From UHGV virus genome UHGV-1351982: DNA of 64,000 nucleotides; one strand, given 5' to 3'. Positions within the stretch are counted from its first letter, which is position 1. The number at the start of each line of letters is the position of its first letter. The notes under the pieces are model-generated. The model saw only the letters and a list, made by a program, of their open reading frames with translations. It was not told the origin of the DNA and did no database searches. The stretch is from a virus. Shown here piece by piece: positions 31,242 to 42,475 of the stretch. The translations under genes were made by a program, and so were the position numbers.

Positions 31242-31670
31242 ATGTTCGATAATCTTTTCATGAAAGAGGTAAACCCTATGCTTCTCAACTTCTGGCGTTC
31301 TCTCCCTAATGGTATGTACAATGAAACCATCAATCTCCTTAAGATTTGGTGTGAGAATAACGATATCTTCCTGTCTTTTAAAGGCCCGCTAGAGGAAGCT
31401 CCGTGTATTGGAGTTAGTGTGGATTTAGGTGAGGGAGTAGAAGAGATTGTGGACTGGAAAGAACTCGATGAAATGGGTCTGGTTTTTGCCTTGAACCATA
31501 AGCTGTTTATGCCTGCAAATCACCGTCTTATTGTAAATTATCGTACTGGTGAAGCTCCTGCTTTCCAGGTAAATGAACGTGAGGGCTGGTCATATTCGCC
31601 CGAGGAAGTAAATGAGGGGATTCAGAAACTTCGTCGTTTCGGGTATATGATCCCAGGTTTAACTGCTTAA
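31242..31670 (+). CDS. hypothetical protein, paralog 1 (142 aa)
   Basis: AAGGTG RBS; shares WxELxxMGLxxALN ... TGExP ... PGL with the next gene. Confidence 0.5.
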   Translation: MFDNLFMKEVNPMLLNFWRSLPNGMYNETINLLKIWCENNDIFLSFKGPLEEAPCIGVSVDLGEGVEEIVDWKELDEMGLVFALNHKLFMPANHRLIVNYRTGEAPAFQVNEREGWSYSPEEVNEGIQKLRRFGYMIPGLTA

Positions 31671-31679
31671 GGAGGCAGA

Positions 31680-32075
31680 ATGGAACAAGTATTTTGGCGT
31701 CAGATAGATCCTAGTTTGGTAGAGCGTGCTGAGGGGCTCCTTGCACGTTGGTTGGGGGTTGACAAGGTTAGTGTAACATTTCCGTTTACTTCTGTAACAG
31801 ACCCTAGTGTAGGTGTCTTTGTGGACGAAGATGAAGATGATGGTTGGGAAGCTGACTGGAATGAATTGTCCAGCATGGGCTTGATTGTTGCCCTCAACTT
31901 CTCTATATTCCATCCATGTGGCTTAGCCATTACACGTGACCCCGAAACTGGTGAATCCCCTTATCTTTTGCAAGTAGAAGATGATATTTGGGAGTACACC
32001 GAAGATATTCTCGAAGAAGCTAAAGGTCAATTAAATCGCATTGGGATCTATGTTCCAGGCCTAAATGATGATTGA
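31680..32075 (+). CDS. hypothetical protein, paralog 2 (131 aa)
   Basis: TAAGGAGG RBS; similar to 31242-31670. Confidence 0.5.
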   Translation: MEQVFWRQIDPSLVERAEGLLARWLGVDKVSVTFPFTSVTDPSVGVFVDEDEDDGWEADWNELSSMGLIVALNFSIFHPCGLAITRDPETGESPYLLQVEDDIWEYTEDILEEAKGQLNRIGIYVPGLNDD

Positions 32076-35481: not shown

Positions 35482-35698
35482 AAAGTGGGAGACAAGGAAG
35501 TTTCCCGTAAAAGAACGTAAAACTTCTGTTTACGATACTGCGGAGAAACTATGTAGGGTTGTACCACCTCGTCTCGCTGGTATCCCTAATGTCTCCATAT
35601 GGTTACTTAAACAACGGAAGACTCGTGTGTCTCTTCGCATTGGCTTTGAGTTAGATAAAGTCTATGCTGAACTTGCTTCTTTGCTCAAAGAATCGTAA
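35465..35698 (+). CDS. hypothetical protein (about 77 aa)
   Basis: ATG with GGAG RBS; overlaps the 3' end of the preceding gene. Confidence 0.4.
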   Translation: MTVKNKKWETRKFPVKERKTSVYDTAEKLCRVVPPRLAGIPNVSIWLLKQRKTRVSLRIGFELDKVYAELASLLKES

Positions 35699-35705
35699 AA
35701 ATTTA

Positions 35706-35735
35706 TTTGCTTTCAGGAAAAATTTTCTGTATAAT
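35706..35735 (+). promoter_or_regulatory. sigma70-like early promoter
   Basis: ttgctt, 18 nt, tataat, leader ataaatttgagagaggag. Confidence 0.55.
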
Positions 35736-35766
35736 AGATTCATAAATTTGAGAGAGGAGTTTAAAT

Positions 35767-36471: not shown

Positions 36472-36718
36472 ACTAACTGATCTGTTAAAAGCTGGAGAGG
36501 TAAAATATCTCCAGCGAGATAGCTGGGAAAACAATACTTATTCTACTACTATTATCAAAGTAGATGTTGATAATAATGACATCGTAGAATTTACATGGTG
36601 GTGGTCTAAAGATGGACGCACTAAACTCACGCTAGACGATGCATCGTGGAAAACCACTGAGCTAACTCTAGACGAAGCTCTGGCCGACGATTGGGAGATC
36701 GTTGAACTAGATGTGTAG
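36464..36718 (+). CDS. hypothetical protein (84 aa)
   Basis: ORF overlapping the upstream stop. Confidence 0.5.
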   Translation: MSKLTDLLKAGEVKYLQRDSWENNTYSTTIIKVDVDNNDIVEFTWWWSKDGRTKLTLDDASWKTTELTLDEALADDWEIVELDV

Positions 36719-36738
36719 CAGTTACTGAAAAATTTCAG

Positions 36739-36767
36739 TTGCTTAATCCTGTAATTCTTGATATAAT
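36739..36767 (+). promoter_or_regulatory. sigma70-like early promoter
   Basis: ttgctt, 17 nt, tataat. Confidence 0.5.
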
Positions 36768-36825
36768 ATTCTCATAGTTTGAAAGAACTATTCTGTTTAA
36801 TTCTTAATTAAGGAAATCGAAAAAT

Positions 36826-37619: not shown

Positions 37620-37928
37620 ATGAGCGATCAGGTAAATCAAAACTATGAAGGACACGTTGACGACCAGTCCATCATGCTTTGGGAGAAGGAGGGGGAACAA
37701 GTAAGACTAACCGTATCTGAATTTCGTGGGAATCTATACATGGGAATTCGTTACTGGCTCCAAGATATTACTGGAGAGTGGTTTCCAACGAAATCCGGCT
37801 TCTCTTTTCCTTATACCCTAGAAACTACATCACAGCTATTCTACGCTTTTACGCAAATCCTCAGTGAATCCGAGGTCTTGCATGAAGTACAGAAACGAGC
37901 TGAAGAACTCAAAGCCAAGAATGCCTAG
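37620..37928 (+). CDS. hypothetical protein (102 aa)
   Basis: ORF. Confidence 0.5.
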   Translation: MSDQVNQNYEGHVDDQSIMLWEKEGEQVRLTVSEFRGNLYMGIRYWLQDITGEWFPTKSGFSFPYTLETTSQLFYAFTQILSESEVLHEVQKRAEELKAKNA

Positions 37929-37945
37929 TTCTTGGCTTTTTCTTT
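37912..37945 (+). terminator. rho-independent terminator
   Basis: Hairpin gccaagaa ... ttcttggc plus T-run. Confidence 0.5.
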
Positions 37946-37955
37946 ATAAATGTAC

Positions 37956-37984
37956 TTGCTTTCGACTCAGTTTTCATATATAAT
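37956..37984 (+). promoter_or_regulatory. sigma70-like early promoter
   Basis: ttgctt, 17 nt, tataat, leader ataaattgatgagagg. Confidence 0.55.
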
Positions 37985-38013
37985 ATTTATATAAATTGAT
38001 GAGAGGATCAATT

Positions 38014-38214
38014 ATGGCAATGACAATAACACTTCCAAAGATTCAAGCAAAACTTAATTTGCTCTCCATAGCAAGAATCAATTATCAGGATAGTATCGGC
38101 ACTCCAAACCAGAAAGCGTACAAAGATGCGTGGTTGAAAGAGGCTGCTGATTTAGCTGGTATGGCTGCTCAGTATAATAAAGAACTCAAAATGGAAATTG
38201 CAGACGATGAATAA
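38014..38214 (+). CDS. hypothetical protein (about 66 aa)
   Basis: ATG after GAGAGGA RBS. Confidence 0.45.
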   Translation: MAMTITLPKIQAKLNLLSIARINYQDSIGTPNQKAYKDAWLKEAADLAGMAAQYNKELKMEIADDE

Positions 38215-39178
38215 TGTAAAAGACTTTATCAAACGTTGTCAAGAAGCGTACTACCAGGGAATGAGTCTTATTTCCGATGAAGAATATGATCGTCTGATTA
38301 AAAGATTCCCGTTAGAGGAAGAAATCGGGCCGAAAGGTGATATCCCTCATTTGTATCGTATGTATTCTTTACAGAAAGTCTATTACGATCGTGGTGATAA
38401 AGCTCCATTTAACCCATTAGGTCAGGTTGAAACTGATAAGTTAGATGGTTGTGCGATTTCTCTATTATATATTAATGGTGAATTTGTTCAAGCGTTAACT
38501 CGTGGTAACGGTATTCTAGGGAATGATGTAACGCATAACGTTAAGATGCTGAACATTCCTAAAACTATTTCCCAAAGAGTACCAACTCAAATCACTGGTG
38601 AAGTTCTCATTACTAAAGAAGTAGAGAACAAACGTAACTACGCTTCGGGTGCTATTAACCTGAAAGATAGTGATGATTTCATACAACGTATTGGTGAAGG
38701 TGGTTTAATCTTCGTTGCATATGGTATCCAGTGTTCAGCGGAAACAGTCGGTATTACAGAAGCCTATTTAAAAGATATGCTTTGGCTAGAGAATGAGAAC
38801 TTCTTGACAGTTGTTAATGTTCGTTCCTTTTTTAAATGGATTCCGACGGACGGTAAAGTTGTTCGTATTAACGACAACAATAAATTCTTCCGTGAAGGTT
38901 GGACTAATAAATTTCCTCGTGGTGCATTTGCTATTAAAGAGGATGAAGAAGGCGAAATTACCACACTTGTTAAAGTTGAATGGCAAGTAGGGGCTTCTGG
39001 TAAAGTAACTCCAGTTGGTTATTTCGAGCCGGTGATTATTGATGATGCCACAATTGTTAAAGCAACTCTTAATAACGTTGATTATATTAACGCTCTCGAT
39101 TTAGAGATCGGTTGCCAGATTCGAGTGATTCGTGCTGGTGGTGTAATCCCTTGTATAGTAGAGCGAGTATACGACTAA
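38198..39178 (+). CDS. NAD-dependent DNA ligase, N-terminal (adenylation) subunit
   Basis: KxDG adenylation motif (TDKLDGCA) with LigA-like flanking sequence. Confidence 0.6.
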   Translation: MQTMNNVKDFIKRCQEAYYQGMSLISDEEYDRLIKRFPLEEEIGPKGDIPHLYRMYSLQKVYYDRGDKAPFNPLGQVETDKLDGCAISLLYINGEFVQALTRGNGILGNDVTHNVKMLNIPKTISQRVPTQITGEVLITKEVENKRNYASGAINLKDSDDFIQRIGEGGLIFVAYGIQCSAETVGITEAYLKDMLWLENENFLTVVNVRSFFKWIPTDGKVVRINDNNKFFREGWTNKFPRGAFAIKEDEEGEITTLVKVEWQVGASGKVTPVGYFEPVIIDDATIVKATLNNVDYINALDLEIGCQIRVIRAGGVIPCIVERVYD

Positions 39179-39321
39179 TTCGTAACCCTTTGCTACCCGT
39201 TTACCGTGTCGGAATTATAAAGTGGTTATTGACATTTTCGCCGCTTAGGTATATACTATTATCATTCAGTTGAGGGATAGAAAGTTATGGCGAGGGTAAG
39301 CAAAGTTAGTTAAAATTGTAG

Positions 39322-39350
39322 TTGCTAAATGCTTAAATACTTGCTATAAT
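39322..39350 (+). promoter_or_regulatory. sigma70-like promoter between the two ligase parts
   Basis: ttgcta, 17 nt, tataat, leader ataaattgataagg. Confidence 0.5.
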
Positions 39351-39380
39351 ATTTATATAAATTGATAAGGAAGAAATTTG

Positions 39381-40160
39381 ATGAAAATCGAAATTCCAAC
39401 ACAATGTCCCTCTTGTGGTTCTAAGCTAGATCTTGTCAACGGGCAATTATTCTGTAGGAATAAGTCCAACTGTCCAGCGCAATCAAGTAAGTTAATCGAG
39501 AACTTCTGCACAAAAATGAAGTTAAAGGGCTTTGGCCCGAAAACTATTGAGAAGCTGGAGCTGACTAAGATCTCAGAACTGTTTTACCTGACCGAAGAAG
39601 ATTTGGTCGGAGCTGTGGGTAGCAAGGTTGCCGCTAAATTGATTAGCGAGTTAAATACTAAGGTTCGCGGAGACATTGACTTTGGTTCAGTTCTCGGTTC
39701 TTTAGGAATTCCTCTTATTGGAGAGGTTGCAGCAAAGAAACTGTCCCAAAATTGCACTAGCTTCCACGATGTGAAGGCTGACGGCAAGGCTGGAGAAAAT
39801 TACAAAACCTGGCTAAATTCCCCACAAGGCAAGGATGTTATTGAATTACCGTGGAAATTCTCAACAGGTATTCGAGGTGCTAAAGCGGATATCATCATTA
39901 CAGATGATTTAGTTGCCCAGCCAAATGGAATCACGGTCTGTATTACCGGATCTTTGCAAGATTTTGCAAATCGAACGGATGCAACAAACTATTTAGAAAG
40001 TCTAGGATATACGGTTAAGAAGTCCGTTACCAAAGACGTCAAATACCTAATCTGTGAGGATGAATCAAAACGTTCTTCCTCATCTTATAAGAAAGCCGAA
40101 ACGAATGGGATAGAAATCCTGTCGATTAAAGAACTATTGGAGAAAAATAATAATGTCTAA
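39381..40160 (+). CDS. NAD-dependent DNA ligase, C-terminal subunit (zinc finger, helix-hairpin-helix, BRCT-like)
   Basis: CPSCGSKL ... CRNKSNCPAQ Cys4 zinc finger followed by GFGPKTIEKL helix-hairpin-helix-like repeats. Confidence 0.55.
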   Translation: MKIEIPTQCPSCGSKLDLVNGQLFCRNKSNCPAQSSKLIENFCTKMKLKGFGPKTIEKLELTKISELFYLTEEDLVGAVGSKVAAKLISELNTKVRGDIDFGSVLGSLGIPLIGEVAAKKLSQNCTSFHDVKADGKAGENYKTWLNSPQGKDVIELPWKFSTGIRGAKADIIITDDLVAQPNGITVCITGSLQDFANRTDATNYLESLGYTVKKSVTKDVKYLICEDESKRSSSSYKKAETNGIEILSIKELLEKNNNV

Positions 40161-40920
40161 ACTGAACTGGAACGTAGAAGGTGTAACCGAGTCTCTGAAA
40201 GCAAAAGCCACTGCTCTGGGTGTTGCTGTAATCTCTCAAGAACAAGTAGCTGCTATCGCTGCTGAACTGGCTACCGAGACTGGTAAAGACGTTACCGCTC
40301 GCTCTGTTGGCTCTAAGCTGCGTAAAGAAGGTTTCGAAGTACAGAAAGCAAACGAAGTACAGAAATCCCCGTGGACTCCTGAGCAGGAAGCTGAACTGGT
40401 TGATTTCCTGAACGCTCATGCTGGTCAGTATACTTACGCTGAAATCGCTGCTGCTGTAGCTGGTGGTCAGTTCGGTGCTAAGCAGGTACAGGGTAAGATC
40501 CTGAGTCTGGAAATGACTGCTTCTGTTAAGCCAACCGAAAAAGCTGCTGCTGTTCGTTCCTTCACTCCTGACGAAGAAACTGATTTCGTTAATCAGGTTG
40601 TTGCTGGTGCTACTATTGAAGCTATCGCTGCTCACTTCGGTCGCAATATTAAGCAGATCCGTGGTAAAGCTCTGAGTCTGCTTCGTGAAGGTCGTATCGC
40701 TGCTATGCCGGTACAGGAAACTTCAAGTGCTAAAACTCGTGAAGATCTGTTAGAAGGTCTGGATCTGGCTAACATGACTGTTGCTGAGATCGCTGAGAAA
40801 ACTGGTAAGTCTGAGCGCGGTGTTAAATCTATGCTGTCTCGTCGTGGTCTGGTTGCTAAGGACTATGATGGTGCCGCTAAGCGTGCTAAACTGGATGCAA
40901 AAGCTGCGGCTGCTGAATAA
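40153..40920 (+). CDS. hypothetical Ala-rich protein (255 aa), likely abundant
   Basis: Host-optimal codons; internal repeats; strong terminator follows. Confidence 0.55.
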   Translation: MSKLNWNVEGVTESLKAKATALGVAVISQEQVAAIAAELATETGKDVTARSVGSKLRKEGFEVQKANEVQKSPWTPEQEAELVDFLNAHAGQYTYAEIAAAVAGGQFGAKQVQGKILSLEMTASVKPTEKAAAVRSFTPDEETDFVNQVVAGATIEAIAAHFGRNIKQIRGKALSLLREGRIAAMPVQETSSAKTREDLLEGLDLANMTVAEIAEKTGKSERGVKSMLSRRGLVAKDYDGAAKRAKLDAKAAAAE

Positions 40921-40937
40921 TCTGGTAAATTAAACCT

Positions 40938-40970
40938 AAGGGGAGGGGGCTATGCTCCTTCCCCTTTTTG
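40938..40970 (+). terminator. rho-independent terminator
   Basis: Hairpin aggggaggg ... ccttcccct plus T-run. Confidence 0.55.
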
Positions 40971-41002
40971 CATTTAGAAGGCACGAAAGCGTGCAAAGGA
41001 GA

Positions 41003-42475
41003 ATGACCTTGTTTAACGTGCAAGCTGTAGTGTTGAAGATGCTTCTCGCTTCTGAACAGAAGCAAATAGCATTGGAAACATTCTCAAAACTGCATAAAGA
41101 TCATTTTAATGACGCTTTCTCCTCAATTTACCAAGCCGTCCAGAATTATTATAAGAAATATAACGCAATGCCGTCCATTGACGCACTGATGCTTGAGGCC
41201 AATAGGAACGCCCGCCTTTCTCAAGCTCTTGTCGTCTTAGCTAACACTCAAATTCCAGAAGTGAGCATGGAACAGGCGCTTGAAGTCCTAGAAGCCGAAT
41301 ATACACAGGATCTATTCCTGAAACTTCTAGAAACAGACGTGCTTCAAGATTTAACAATGCTGGATCAGGGAGAAATTCTCAACCGAGTTGCCTCCCTTCA
41401 CTTAAAATTAGAAGAGAAAGTAACGAATACTGGAAAGGTATTCAACGCAGACACAATGCGTATTTTCCAGAGAGAAGAAGATACCAAACTGAACTTGATC
41501 GCTCTTGGTATTTGTAATGAGTTCGACGCTCAAATTGGTTTAGCTCGCACAGAAACGTTACTGCTTGGTGGTTGGCGTGGTACTGGTAAATCCATTATCT
41601 GTTCAAACATACAGGTTCAGCAATATTTGAATGGAGACATTGCTCCATATTTCTCAATTGAGATGAAAGAGCACGAAGTGTTTAGACGTAATCTGGCTAT
41701 GTTAGCTGGAGTATCTGCATTAGCAATGCGTAATAACACTCTTGAAGGTGCTGCTCTGTTGAGATTAGCCAGAACTAGGGCTAGAATGTTTAATGGTGGT
41801 GAAGAGCTTTTCGATAACTTCGTTAAGCAATACACTATGGCTAAAATGAGTGACTTCTATGATATGGAAAGTAAACTCCTTGAAGGCTATGAGCTTCACA
41901 CTCCTATGATCATCGTTTACGATCCTGAACTGTCTATTACGACGGTTGACGTAGAATTAAATAAACTAGTTGCTAAATATGGTGATAAGGTTACTGTAGC
42001 TCTTCTAGACTATATTAACCAAACAAGACTTCCAGATTCAAAGACCATTGATATGTATGACTGGAAAGAACAGATGGTTGTTAGTTCATCTTTCAAATCT
42101 ATATGCCAGAAACATAACGTGGCTGGTGTTGCCCCTTACCAGATTGACCAAGATGGTAGAACGCGTATGTCTAAAGGGATTCTTGATTCCGCAGATATGG
42201 CTGCTAATCTTAACGCTGCAAAAGCTGATAATGGTCAAGGTGCTATTATGTTTGATTTCGTTAAGACTCGTTCCTCTGATAGTGTGAAGTTTATGCCTAA
42301 GATGAACTGGGAAACTCTACGAATGGATAACACTACCAACCTAGCAATGGAAGATATTGCGCAAATGGAAGCTGAGTTCGTTATTCCTATTGAAAAGGAT
42401 AAACCAGCTCAACCTAAACGTGCTAAGAAAGACAAAGCTGAAAATTCAACAGGTGAACAGGCCAGCGATATATGA
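41003..42475 (+). CDS. RecA-fold ATPase, putative DnaB-like replicative helicase
   Basis: Walker A GGWRGTGKS; ATG after AAGGAG RBS (the ORF-track start lies inside the terminator). Confidence 0.5.
   Translation: MTLFNVQAVVLKMLLASEQKQIALETFSKLHKDHFNDAFSSIYQAVQNYYKKYNAMPSIDALMLEANRNARLSQALVVLANTQIPEVSMEQALEVLEAEYTQDLFLKLLETDVLQDLTMLDQGEILNRVASLHLKLEEKVTNTGKVFNADTMRIFQREEDTKLNLIALGICNEFDAQIGLARTETLLLGGWRGTGKSIICSNIQVQQYLNGDIAPYFSIEMKEHEVFRRNLAMLAGVSALAMRNNTLEGAALLRLARTRARMFNGGEELFDNFVKQYTMAKMSDFYDMESKLLEGYELHTPMIIVYDPELSITTVDVELNKLVAKYGDKVTVALLDYINQTRLPDSKTIDMYDWKEQMVVSSSFKSICQKHNVAGVAPYQIDQDGRTRMSKGILDSADMAANLNAAKADNGQGAIMFDFVKTRSSDSVKFMPKMNWETLRMDNTTNLAMEDIAQMEAEFVIPIEKDKPAQPKRAKKDKAENSTGEQASDI

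What the first reader, a model, noticed from the sequence alone, without database searches (positions are those of the whole stretch)
38198..40160. NAD-dependent DNA ligase split into two genes with an intervening promoter
The adenylation domain (KxDG) and the zinc-finger/HhH/BRCT portion are separate ORFs, with about 200 bp of non-coding sequence carrying a promoter between them. This implies a two-subunit ligase, and makes it another NAD-dependent enzyme in this genome.
Basis: partly seen in the sequence, partly recalled or inferred. Interest (0 to 1): 0.45.

Follow-up and report, generated by a model that had tools for sequence, protein, structure and literature searches.

The report
T5-type two-subunit NAD DNA ligase
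This is the two-gene (ligA/ligB) NAD-dependent DNA ligase of T5-like phages, with the two named T5 early promoters P-K28b and P-K28a between the genes; it is real, but it was described in 2005 and a crystal structure of the heterodimer from a related phage was released in 2026.

Summary
On the + strand, ligA (38207-39178, 323 aa: domain Ia, adenylation domain with KLDG, OB fold) and ligB (39381-40160, 259 aa: Cys4 zinc finger, HhH, BRCT) are separated by 202 bp of AT-rich DNA. That spacer has 5-6 stop codons in every frame and two strong sigma-70 promoters. The window is a T5-like phage (Demerecviridae). In the phage T5 RefSeq record the same two genes are ligA/ligB, and the spacer carries the annotated promoters P-K28b and P-K28a; the spacer is 196/202 identical to T5. 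The split sits exactly at the OB/zinc-finger boundary of single-chain LigA. It is kept in six other Demerecviridae phages examined, down to 43-52% protein identity, and both genes are under strong purifying selection (dN/dS 0.05-0.08). A sequencing frameshift or pseudogene is excluded. PDB 9HU3 ([quoted passage not shown], released 2026-01-14) holds homologues of both chains (E=2e-106 and 1e-79). [quoted passage not shown] Verdict: reading supported, already known, low interest. The only modest addition here is that the tandem promoter pair stays directly upstream of ligB across the family, even where other genes lie between ligA and ligB.

The parts
37911..37939 (+). Intrinsic terminator-like hairpin with a T run that closes the upstream transcription unit
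   Evidence: 12-pair stem followed by TTCTTTAT. It lies just after the stop of the T5.115 homologue (ORF 37620-37928).
37956..37984 (+). T5-type early promoter (TTGCTT-17-TATAAT plus downstream ATAAATTGA) that drives the 66-aa ORF and ligA
   Evidence: It is a member of the repeated promoter family (D1/D3, exact match at 37979-37999). The homologous T5 sequence is annotated 'promoter' directly upstream of ligA.
38014..38214 (+). Small ORF (66 aa, phrog_8267, unknown function) whose stop overlaps the ligA start; absent from T5
   Evidence: Annotated in phage fuchur. Alignment shows about 190 bp of extra sequence relative to T5. Full-length PHROG match, E=5e-44.
38207..39178 (+). ligA: catalytic subunit (domain Ia-like N-terminus, nucleotidyltransferase domain with Lys78 in KLDG, OB fold)
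   Evidence: phrog_3359 matches end to end (E=2e-175). PDB 9hu3_A matches at E=2e-106. The last residues align to about residue 390-393 of E. coli LigA.
39229..39257 (+). Promoter P-K28b (TTGACA-17-TATACT); the annotated T5 feature corresponds to window ~39209-39283
   Evidence: 11/12 consensus. T5 RefSeq feature 'promoter P-K 28b'. The sequence is identical in T5 and fuchur. A TTGAC(A/G)-17-TATACT site is kept upstream of ligB in Spivey, DU_PP_V, AhP_Mru1 and Ceto.
39322..39350 (+). Promoter P-K28a (TTGCTA-17-TATAAT with an extended -10 TG and downstream ATAAATTGA); the annotated T5 feature corresponds to window ~39302-39376
   Evidence: A second promoter-like site is kept at the same position in the four other genera read.
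39381..40160 (+). ligB: DNA-binding subunit (Cys4 zinc finger at C9/C12/C25/C31, HhH domain, flexible linker 164-180, BRCT 185-257)
   Evidence: The four Cys are invariant in 27 homologues. The AF2 model has mean pLDDT 84. Foldseek matches 9hu3_B at E=2e-25 and E. coli LigA 2owo_A at E=3e-7. Residue 3 aligns to E. coli LigA residue 402.
40153..40920 (+). D5 gene (DNA-binding protein), overlapping the ligB stop; distal gene of the same transcription unit
   Evidence: ORF; annotation as D5 protein; HTH/sigma-70 region 4-like matches.
40938..40966 (+). Strong intrinsic terminator-like hairpin (13 pairs, 8 G-C) with a T run; first terminator downstream of ligA
   Evidence: No terminator-like site was found between 37940 and 40937 on the + strand.

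Best explanation
This is the T5-type heterodimeric NAD+-dependent DNA ligase. LigA (323 aa) carries the chemistry. Its N-terminal Ia-like segment and nucleotidyltransferase domain take AMP from NAD+ onto Lys78 of the KLDG motif, and the OB fold completes the catalytic core. LigB (259 aa) supplies what the C-terminal half of a single-chain bacterial LigA supplies: a Cys4 zinc finger, the HhH DNA-binding domain and a BRCT domain. The two chains associate non-covalently around nicked duplex DNA and seal nicks (Okazaki fragments and repair nicks) during phage replication. The break is exactly at the OB/zinc-finger linker, with only about 6-9 linker residues missing, so no domain is interrupted. 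Both genes lie in one terminator-bounded early transcription unit. An early promoter at 37956-37984 drives the 66-aa ORF and ligA. No terminator follows ligA. The tandem promoters P-K28b and P-K28a in the 202-bp spacer add transcription of ligB and D5, and the unit ends at the terminator at 40938-40966. Shown here: gene structure, domain content, split point, conservation, purifying selection, identity with the annotated T5 genes and promoters, and homology to a solved heterodimer-DNA complex. Inferred: that this phage's own two proteins dimerise and use NAD+, that the promoters fire as annotated, and that ligB is therefore transcribed more than ligA.
For: Identity with T5. The region is 89-97% identical in DNA to T5. 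The T5 record names the genes ligA (T5.116) and ligB (T5.117) and places promoters P-K28b and P-K28a between them. Literature. [quoted passage not shown] Domain tiling. TIGR00575 positions 63-378 (A) and 388-651 (B); phrog_3869 positions 9-381 and 388-654. E. coli LigA residues 284-390 align to A 214-320, and residues 402-529 and 585-666 align to B. Motifs. KLDG aligns with the KVDG motif of T. filiformis ligase (K118 by the alignment's numbering). The Cys4 residues are invariant. Solved homologue. 9HU3/9I5I hold both chains, and the entry title says heterodimeric ligase on nicked DNA. Chain B is 100% identical to the LigB of Providencia phages vB_PreS_PR1 and PSTCR5. Not an artefact. There are 5-6 stops per frame in the spacer. 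430 of 457 records keep the whole 2.4-kb segment. The split is present in six other Demerecviridae phages with intact ORFs, and dN/dS is 0.05 (ligA) and 0.08 (ligB) against T5. Promoters. Hexamer matches are 11/12 and 10/12. The spacer is 97% identical to T5, against 89% for ligA and 94% for ligB. The tandem pair is kept directly upstream of ligB in four further genera. The -10 plus ATAAATTGA signature occurs 22 times in the window against 1.9 expected.
Against: No experiment on this phage's proteins is available here. Heterodimer formation is inferred from a homologue at about 54% (LigB) identity. The N-terminal Ia-like segment, which decides NAD+ use, is not significantly similar on its own to cellular LigA (E=1.1 to T. 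filiformis), although the YY...SDEEYDRL pattern aligns in register. Neither chain reaches the TIGR00575 whole-protein cut-off (174 and 107 bits against 444). The Pfam HhH match is below its gathering score. I could not find or read the paper behind 9HU3, so its biochemical conclusions are unknown to me. Promoter activity rests on the T5 annotation and consensus matches, not on transcript mapping done here.
Confidence: 0.93

Rival explanations
1. The two ORFs are an artefact or a decaying gene: a sequencing or assembly frameshift, or a pseudogenised single-chain ligA broken by mutation.
For: ligB is in a different frame from ligA. On its own, this is what a frameshift would give.
Against: The gap is 202 nt of 33% G+C DNA with 5-6 stops in every frame, not a single slipped base. 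Alignment to LigA leaves only about 6-9 residues unaccounted for, so the spacer is not degenerate coding sequence. The same layout occurs in 430 independently sequenced records and in six other Demerecviridae phages. Both ORFs are intact everywhere, with dN/dS of 0.05-0.08. A homologous pair was expressed and crystallised as two chains.
Confidence: 0.01
2. One gene interrupted by a removable element (self-splicing intron, split intein, translational bypass), so that a single full-length LigA polypeptide is made after all.
For: T5-like genomes carry many HNH homing endonucleases, and such elements often interrupt replication genes.
Against: No Rfam family, including intron families, matches the spacer at E<=1. 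LigA ends and LigB starts at the domain boundary with no extra residues that could be intein halves. The spacer holds two promoters and a ribosome-binding site with ATG for ligB. In Vibrio phage Ceto the gap is 1134 bp and holds two ordinary genes, one of them DprA-like. The PR1 enzyme was solved as two chains.
Confidence: 0.01
3. The two proteins do not form an obligate enzyme. LigA acts as a minimal ligase on its own, and LigB, made from its own strong promoters together with D5, has a separate DNA-binding or recruiting role, for example at the phage's programmed nicks or at the replisome through its BRCT domain.
For: The tandem promoter pair stays attached to ligB, not to ligA, even when other genes separate the two. 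ligB overlaps D5 and shares its transcription unit. A core truncated after the OB fold still self-adenylates in another LigA-type enzyme (PMC1684257).
Against: The PDB entry title calls the PR1 enzyme a heterodimeric ligase on nicked DNA. ligA and ligB are adjacent or nearly so in all seven phages compared. In the comparison with T5 both are under similarly strong purifying selection. From established knowledge of LigA (stated from memory, not tested here), cores lacking the Zn/HhH module adenylate themselves but seal nicks poorly.
Confidence: 0.05

Closest known systems
Bacteriophage T5 ligA (T5.116, YP_006944) / ligB (T5.117, YP_006945) with promoters P-K28b and P-K28a (NC_005859; Wang et al. 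2005, Virology 332:45, as cited in PMC1684257)
   Same: Same genes with the same lengths (323 and 259 aa) and the same 202-bp spacer, which is 196/202 identical. Same +1 frame offset and same neighbours (T5.115 homologue upstream; D5, helicase and primase downstream). Protein identity is 95.4% for LigA and 96.5% for LigB.
   Different: The window phage is not T5 itself; its best DNA matches are Salmonella phages such as JNwz02 and BD13 at 99.5-99.6%. It has an extra 66-aa ORF between the early promoter and the ligA start that T5 lacks.
Providencia phage PR1 heterodimeric DNA ligase, PDB 9HU3 / 9I5I (released 2026-01-14)
   Same: Two chains with the same domain split. Chain A matches LigA end to end (E=2e-106) and chain B matches LigB end to end (E=1e-79). 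It comes from another T5-like phage and was solved on nicked DNA.
   Different: It is a diverged orthologue, about 54% identical for LigB. Its chain B is 248 aa against 259 aa, with a shorter linker before the BRCT domain. I could not read the associated paper.
Single-chain bacterial LigA (E. coli LigA, PDB 2OWO; T. filiformis ligase, 1DGS/1V9P; TIGR00575)
   Same: Same domain order (Ia, NTase, OB, Zn finger, HhH, BRCT). KxDG lysine motif, Cys4 zinc finger and BRCT are all present. The two phage proteins together tile the whole profile.
   Different: One polypeptide of ~670 aa against two of 323 and 259 aa. The phage NTase and HhH regions are shorter: 582 residues cover what takes about 650-670 in LigA. 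Neither chain reaches the equivalog cut-off. The similarity of domain Ia is weak.

Membership tests
NAD+-dependent DNA ligase, LigA type (TIGR00575; EC 6.5.1.2) | Nucleotidyltransferase domain with the motif I lysine (KxDG) | tested here: met
   KLDG at LigA residues 78-81. It aligns with the KVDG motif of T. filiformis ligase. Pfam DNA_ligase_aden scores 83 bits against a cut-off of 27.
NAD+-dependent DNA ligase, LigA type (TIGR00575; EC 6.5.1.2) | N-terminal domain Ia that binds the NMN moiety of NAD+ | tested here: inconclusive
   phrog_3869 (full-length phage LigA) aligns from profile position 9 to LigA residue 1. YY...SDEEYDRL aligns in register with T. filiformis residues 11-52. Alone, however, the segment scores only E=1.1 against cellular LigA, and TIGR00575 aligns only from residue 46.
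NAD+-dependent DNA ligase, LigA type (TIGR00575; EC 6.5.1.2) | LigA-type OB-fold domain after the NTase domain | tested here: met
   Pfam DNA_ligase_OB scores 77 bits against a cut-off of 32.9, at residues 255-324 of the ORF counted from the TTG at 38198. LigA residues 214-320 align to E. coli LigA 284-390.
NAD+-dependent DNA ligase, LigA type (TIGR00575; EC 6.5.1.2) | Cys4 zinc finger, HhH domain and BRCT domain C-terminal to the OB fold | tested here: met
   C9, C12, C25 and C31 of LigB are invariant in 27 homologues. LigB residues 3-122 align to E. coli LigA 402-529 and residues 169-253 to 585-666. Pfam BRCT scores 35.6 bits against a cut-off of 21.3; HHH_2 scores only 21.6 against 27. The AF2 model matches 2owo_A by Foldseek at E=3e-7.
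NAD+-dependent DNA ligase, LigA type (TIGR00575; EC 6.5.1.2) | All domains on one polypeptide that reaches the equivalog score cut-off | tested here: not met
   There are two ORFs. The chains score 173.7 and 106.8 bits against a cut-off of 444.45. It is therefore LigA-like in mechanism but not a canonical single-chain LigA.
NAD+-dependent DNA ligase, LigA type (TIGR00575; EC 6.5.1.2) | NAD+ (not ATP) as the AMP donor; nick-sealing activity | not testable with these tools
   The only support is the depositors' name for 9hu3_A, 'DNA ligase (NAD(+))', plus homology.
T5-type split (heterodimeric) NAD+ ligase: LigA subunit (phrog_3359) plus LigB subunit (phrog_3498) | End-to-end match of each ORF to the subunit-specific families | tested here: met
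   phrog_3359 matches at E=1.6e-175 (residues 1-323 to profile 1-325 of 325). phrog_3498 matches at E=3.7e-137 (residues 1-258 to profile 1-255 of 256).
T5-type split (heterodimeric) NAD+ ligase: LigA subunit (phrog_3359) plus LigB subunit (phrog_3498) | Break at the OB / zinc-finger linker with no domain interrupted | tested here: met
   The A chain ends at TIGR00575 position 378 and the B chain starts at 388. In E. coli LigA numbering this is about 393 and 400.
T5-type split (heterodimeric) NAD+ ligase: LigA subunit (phrog_3359) plus LigB subunit (phrog_3498) | Synteny: ligA, promoter-bearing spacer, ligB, D5, replicative helicase, primase | tested here: met
   Window ORFs compared with fuchur, T5, Spivey, DU_PP_V, Ceto, D386 and AhP_Mru1.
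T5-type split (heterodimeric) NAD+ ligase: LigA subunit (phrog_3359) plus LigB subunit (phrog_3498) | Physical A-B complex on nicked DNA | not testable with these tools
   Shown only for the PR1 orthologue, by the PDB entry title and the presence of both chains in 9HU3/9I5I.
T5 early promoters P-K28b / P-K28a | Position and sequence identity with the annotated T5 features, and sigma-70 hexamers with a 17-nt spacer | tested here: met
   T5 features at 66366-66440 and 66459-66533. The spacer is 196/202 identical and fully identical from about 39210 to the ligB ATG. Hexamer matches are 11/12 and 10/12.
T5 early promoters P-K28b / P-K28a | Transcription initiation in vivo or in vitro | not testable with these tools
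   Rests on the T5 annotation. I could not retrieve the original promoter papers.

The most novel reading that the evidence does not exclude
The split is maintained for regulation rather than being a frozen accident. A strong tandem promoter pair has stayed fused to the 5' end of ligB across the Demerecviridae examined, even where other genes were inserted between ligA and ligB. The DNA-binding subunit would then be made in excess of, or on a different schedule from, the catalytic subunit. That would let LigB (with D5) occupy nicks or replisome sites on its own, for example to control whether the phage's programmed single-strand nicks get sealed. The evidence does not exclude this, but none of it is shown. 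The depositors of 9HU3, who used 'phage nick sequence' DNA, may already have addressed it.
Probability: 0.1. Interest if true: 0.45.

Novelty: already known. Interest (0 to 1): 0.1.

Why it matters
It matters little as a discovery. The split T5 ligase has been in the literature and in GenBank annotation since 2005, PHROGs has separate families for each subunit, and a heterodimer-DNA crystal structure from a T5-like phage was released in January 2026. The case is still a clean natural example of a multidomain enzyme divided at a domain linker and kept that way over deep divergence. The family-wide linkage of two promoters to the B subunit is a small, testable hint about why the split persists.

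Tried and rejected
1. Paper behind PDB 9HU3/9I5I. Searches by PDB code, by 'heterodimeric/split/two-subunit DNA ligase', by phage PR1 and by 'T5-like + nicks + heterodimeric' found nothing relevant. Only the entry title and release date could be used.

2. Original P-K28 promoter papers. A search for K28a/K28b/PK28 returned only unrelated hits.

3. Known RNA element in the spacer. No Rfam match at E<=1 in 37800-41100 apart from a chance sRNA hit at 37948-38003.

4. Mini-ORF after P-K28b (39288-39314, MARVSKVS, preceded by GAGGGA). It is not conserved as an ORF in Spivey, DU_PP_V, AhP_Mru1 or Ceto. It was rejected as a gene. The purine-rich block looks like the downstream element shared by T5 early promoters.

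5. Structured leader of the P-K28b transcript. It folds well in the window (z=-4.5) and weakly in Spivey (z=-2.1), but not in DU_PP_V, AhP_Mru1 or Ceto. It is not a family-wide feature and was left as a side note.

6. Mobile-element origin of the split. The genes in the enlarged gaps of the Vibrio phages are not homing endonucleases: one is DprA-like and the others are of unknown function.

7. Domain Ia significance. The N-terminal 64 residues alone do not match cellular LigA significantly.

8. A second structure prediction, for LigA, was not run. The sequence match to 9hu3_A (E=2e-106) made it unnecessary.
Full report
**What is there.** On the + strand, an ORF runs from 38198 (TTG; the annotated start in relatives is the ATG at 38207) to 39178. 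A second ORF runs from 39378 (TTG; annotated ATG at 39381) to 40160.

- The first protein (323 aa from the ATG) matches the Pfam NAD-dependent ligase adenylation domain (83 bits) and the LigA OB-fold domain (77 bits). It carries KLDG at residues 78-81.
- The second protein (259 aa) has CPSC at residue 9 and CRNKSNC at residue 25, a weak HhH match and a clear BRCT domain.
- Between them lie 202 nt (39179-39380) of 33% G+C DNA with 5-6 stop codons in each forward frame. ligB sits in the +1 frame relative to ligA.

Two refinements apply: the OB fold belongs to the first ORF, and the spacer holds two promoters rather than one.

**Whose genome it is.** The 2.4-kb segment matches 457 phage records, 430 of them over at least 80% of its length. 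Nearly all are T5-like phages of Salmonella, Escherichia and Klebsiella, and the best are 99.5-99.6% identical. [quoted passage not shown]

The RefSeq record of phage T5 itself names them ligA (T5.116) and ligB (T5.117). It places two named regulatory features between them, 'promoter P-K 28b' and 'promoter P-K 28a'. Aligned to T5, the window's spacer is 196/202 identical, and completely identical from about 39210 to the ligB start codon. By comparison, ligA is 865/972 identical and ligB 735/780.

**The promoters.**
- The consensus scan gives TTGACA-17-TATACT at 39229-39257 (11/12, the best site in the 6.5 kb scanned). It also gives TTGCTA-17-TATAAT with a TG extension at 39322-39350. Both fall inside the T5 features.
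- The second site belongs to a repeated promoter family in the window: an A/T-rich upstream block, TTGCTN, TATAAT, then ATAAATTGA and a purine-rich ribosome-binding block.
- The -10 plus ATAAATTGA signature occurs 22 times in the window against 1.9 expected. Its strand follows gene orientation.
- Members of this family include the copies at 35696-35756 and 36716-36782. These correspond to the T5 features P-N25 and P-N26.
- No terminator-like site lies between the hairpin at 37911-37939 and the strong one at 40938-40966.

From this I infer the following transcription layout. ligA and ligB are co-transcribed from the early promoter at 37956-37984. ligB and D5 receive additional transcription from P-K28b and P-K28a.

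**Where the split falls.**
- Against the full-length LigA equivalog TIGR00575 (652 positions), LigA covers 63-378 and LigB covers 388-651.
- Against the full-length phage LigA family phrog_3869 (656 positions), they cover 9-381 and 388-654.
- Against E. coli LigA (2OWO), LigA residues 214-320 align to 284-390. LigB residues 3-122 align to 402-529 and residues 169-253 to 585-666.

The cut is therefore at the OB/zinc-finger linker. Only about 6-9 linker residues are missing and no domain is interrupted. An AlphaFold2 model of LigB, built from 27 homologues, has mean pLDDT 84. It shows a small beta zinc-finger unit, a helical HhH region, a disordered linker (164-180) and a BRCT fold. By Foldseek it matches 9hu3_B (E=2e-25) and E. 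coli LigA (E=3e-7).

**Not an artefact.** Six other Demerecviridae phages were compared with the window. All have two intact ORFs of 318-325 and 249-263 aa.

| Phage | LigA / LigB identity to window | Gap between ligA and ligB |
|---|---|---|
| T5 | 95% / 96% | 202 bp |
| Klebsiella phage Spivey | 72% / 72% | 199 bp |
| Pectobacterium phage DU_PP_V | 62% / 60% | 189 bp |
| Vibrio phage Ceto | 51% / 52% | 1134 bp, two genes in the gap (one DprA-like) |
| Vibrio phage D386 | 52% / 46% | 443 bp, two small ORFs |
| Aeromonas phage AhP_Mru1 | 47% / 43% | 178 bp |

The identities come, and the Ceto gap genes. dN/dS against T5 is 0.05 for ligA and 0.08 for ligB. A protein search found 627 LigB relatives; the best 120 are all stand-alone proteins of about 190-263 aa. 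A frameshift, a pseudogene, an intron or intein, or translational bypass are all excluded or very unlikely.

**A small addition.** In all four additional genera whose spacer I read, the DNA immediately upstream of ligB carries the same tandem arrangement. There is a TTGAC(A/G)-17-TATACT site, and about 65-70 nt further a TTGCT(A/T/C)-17-TATA(A/C)T site. This holds even in Ceto, where the pair follows the two inserted genes rather than ligA. The promoter pair is thus linked to ligB, not to the ligA-ligB junction as such.

**What is already known.**
[quoted passage not shown] 2005. It shows that a LigA-type enzyme cut after the OB fold still forms the enzyme-adenylate.
- PDB entries 9HU3 and 9I5I contain a 339-aa chain 'DNA ligase (NAD(+))' (E=2e-106 to LigA) and a 248-aa chain 'DNA ligase subunit B' (E=1e-79 to LigB).
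- The 9HU3 title is 'PR1 phage heterodimeric DNA ligase in complex with 21-mer nicked DNA containing phage nick sequence', released 2026-01-14.
- Its B chain is 100% identical to the LigB of the T5-like Providencia phages vB_PreS_PR1 and PSTCR5.
- PHROGs has one family for each subunit, and each is matched end to end here.

I could not find the paper for the structure.

**Mechanism and confidence.** The most likely mechanism (confidence about 0.93) is as follows. LigA self-adenylates on Lys78 from NAD+. LigB provides the zinc-finger/HhH clamp and the BRCT domain. The two assemble non-covalently around nicked DNA and seal it during phage replication.

Gene structure, domain content, split point, conservation and homology to the solved heterodimer are shown. 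Dimerisation, cofactor use and promoter firing in this particular phage are inferred. The weakest link is domain Ia, whose similarity to cellular LigA is not significant on its own. It does align in register, and the full-length phage LigA profile covers it.

**Verdict.** The feature is already known, so interest is low (0.1). The most novel reading not excluded is that independent, promoter-driven expression of LigB serves a regulatory purpose, possibly connected with the programmed nicks of T5-like genomes. I put that at about 0.1 probability.

Noticed in passing
window 38014-38214 (+): A 66-aa ORF (phrog_8267, unknown function, no Pfam match) sits between the early promoter and ligA, and its stop overlaps the ligA start (ATGAATAA). 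Phage T5 lacks this roughly 190-bp segment, so there the same promoter directly precedes ligA. Salmonella phage fuchur has the ORF.
   Followed up: partly
window 39264-39400 (+): The predicted leader of a P-K28b transcript folds into a long hairpin (MFE -32 kcal/mol, z=-4.5). Sequence just after the orphan GAGGGA block pairs with the -10 region of P-K28a. A similar fold is seen in Klebsiella phage Spivey (z=-2.1), with a G-C to G-U change. It is not seen in DU_PP_V, AhP_Mru1 or Ceto. Its function is unknown and it may be chance.
   Followed up: partly
window 39276-39314 (+): A Shine-Dalgarno-like GAGGGA lies downstream of P-K28b, followed by an 8-codon mini-ORF (ATG 39288, MARVSKVS, stop 39312-39314). 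The purine block is kept in Spivey, and Ceto has the same block, but the ORF is not conserved.
   Followed up: partly
window 396-47959, both strands: There are 22 copies of the T5 early-promoter signature TATAAT-N7-TAAATTGA (up to 2 mismatches; 1.9 expected). Nearly all copies before about 26.7 kb are on the - strand, and all from about 28.9 kb are on the + strand. This marks a divergent transcription switch between 26.7 and 28.9 kb.
   Followed up: no
window 35696-35756 and 36716-36782 (+): These are promoter copies upstream of the D2 and D3 homologues. They correspond to the T5 features annotated P-N25 and P-N26. From memory, the first reads like the P-N25 sequence used in commercial T5-promoter expression vectors.
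   Followed up: partly
The second ORF is, by synteny, the homologue of T5.105, which RefSeq also labels 'Sir2'. Here it matches HAD_SAK_2 (a HAD domain of RNA-repair proteins, E=6e-18) and not SIR2, so that T5 annotation looks wrong.
   Followed up: partly
window 31242-31670 and 31680-32075 (+): Two adjacent ORFs (142 and 131 aa) each carry two copies of DUF7415 (E=9e-37 and 1e-27). They look like a tandem paralogue pair of unknown function.
   Followed up: no
public records matched by window 37900-40300 and by LigB: Near-identical sequences are filed under unlikely organisms: 'Campylobacter phage A148', Listeria entries, and a 'BRCT domain-containing protein [Brucella melitensis]'. These are probably mislabelled or contaminated T5-like phage sequences.
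   Followed up: no
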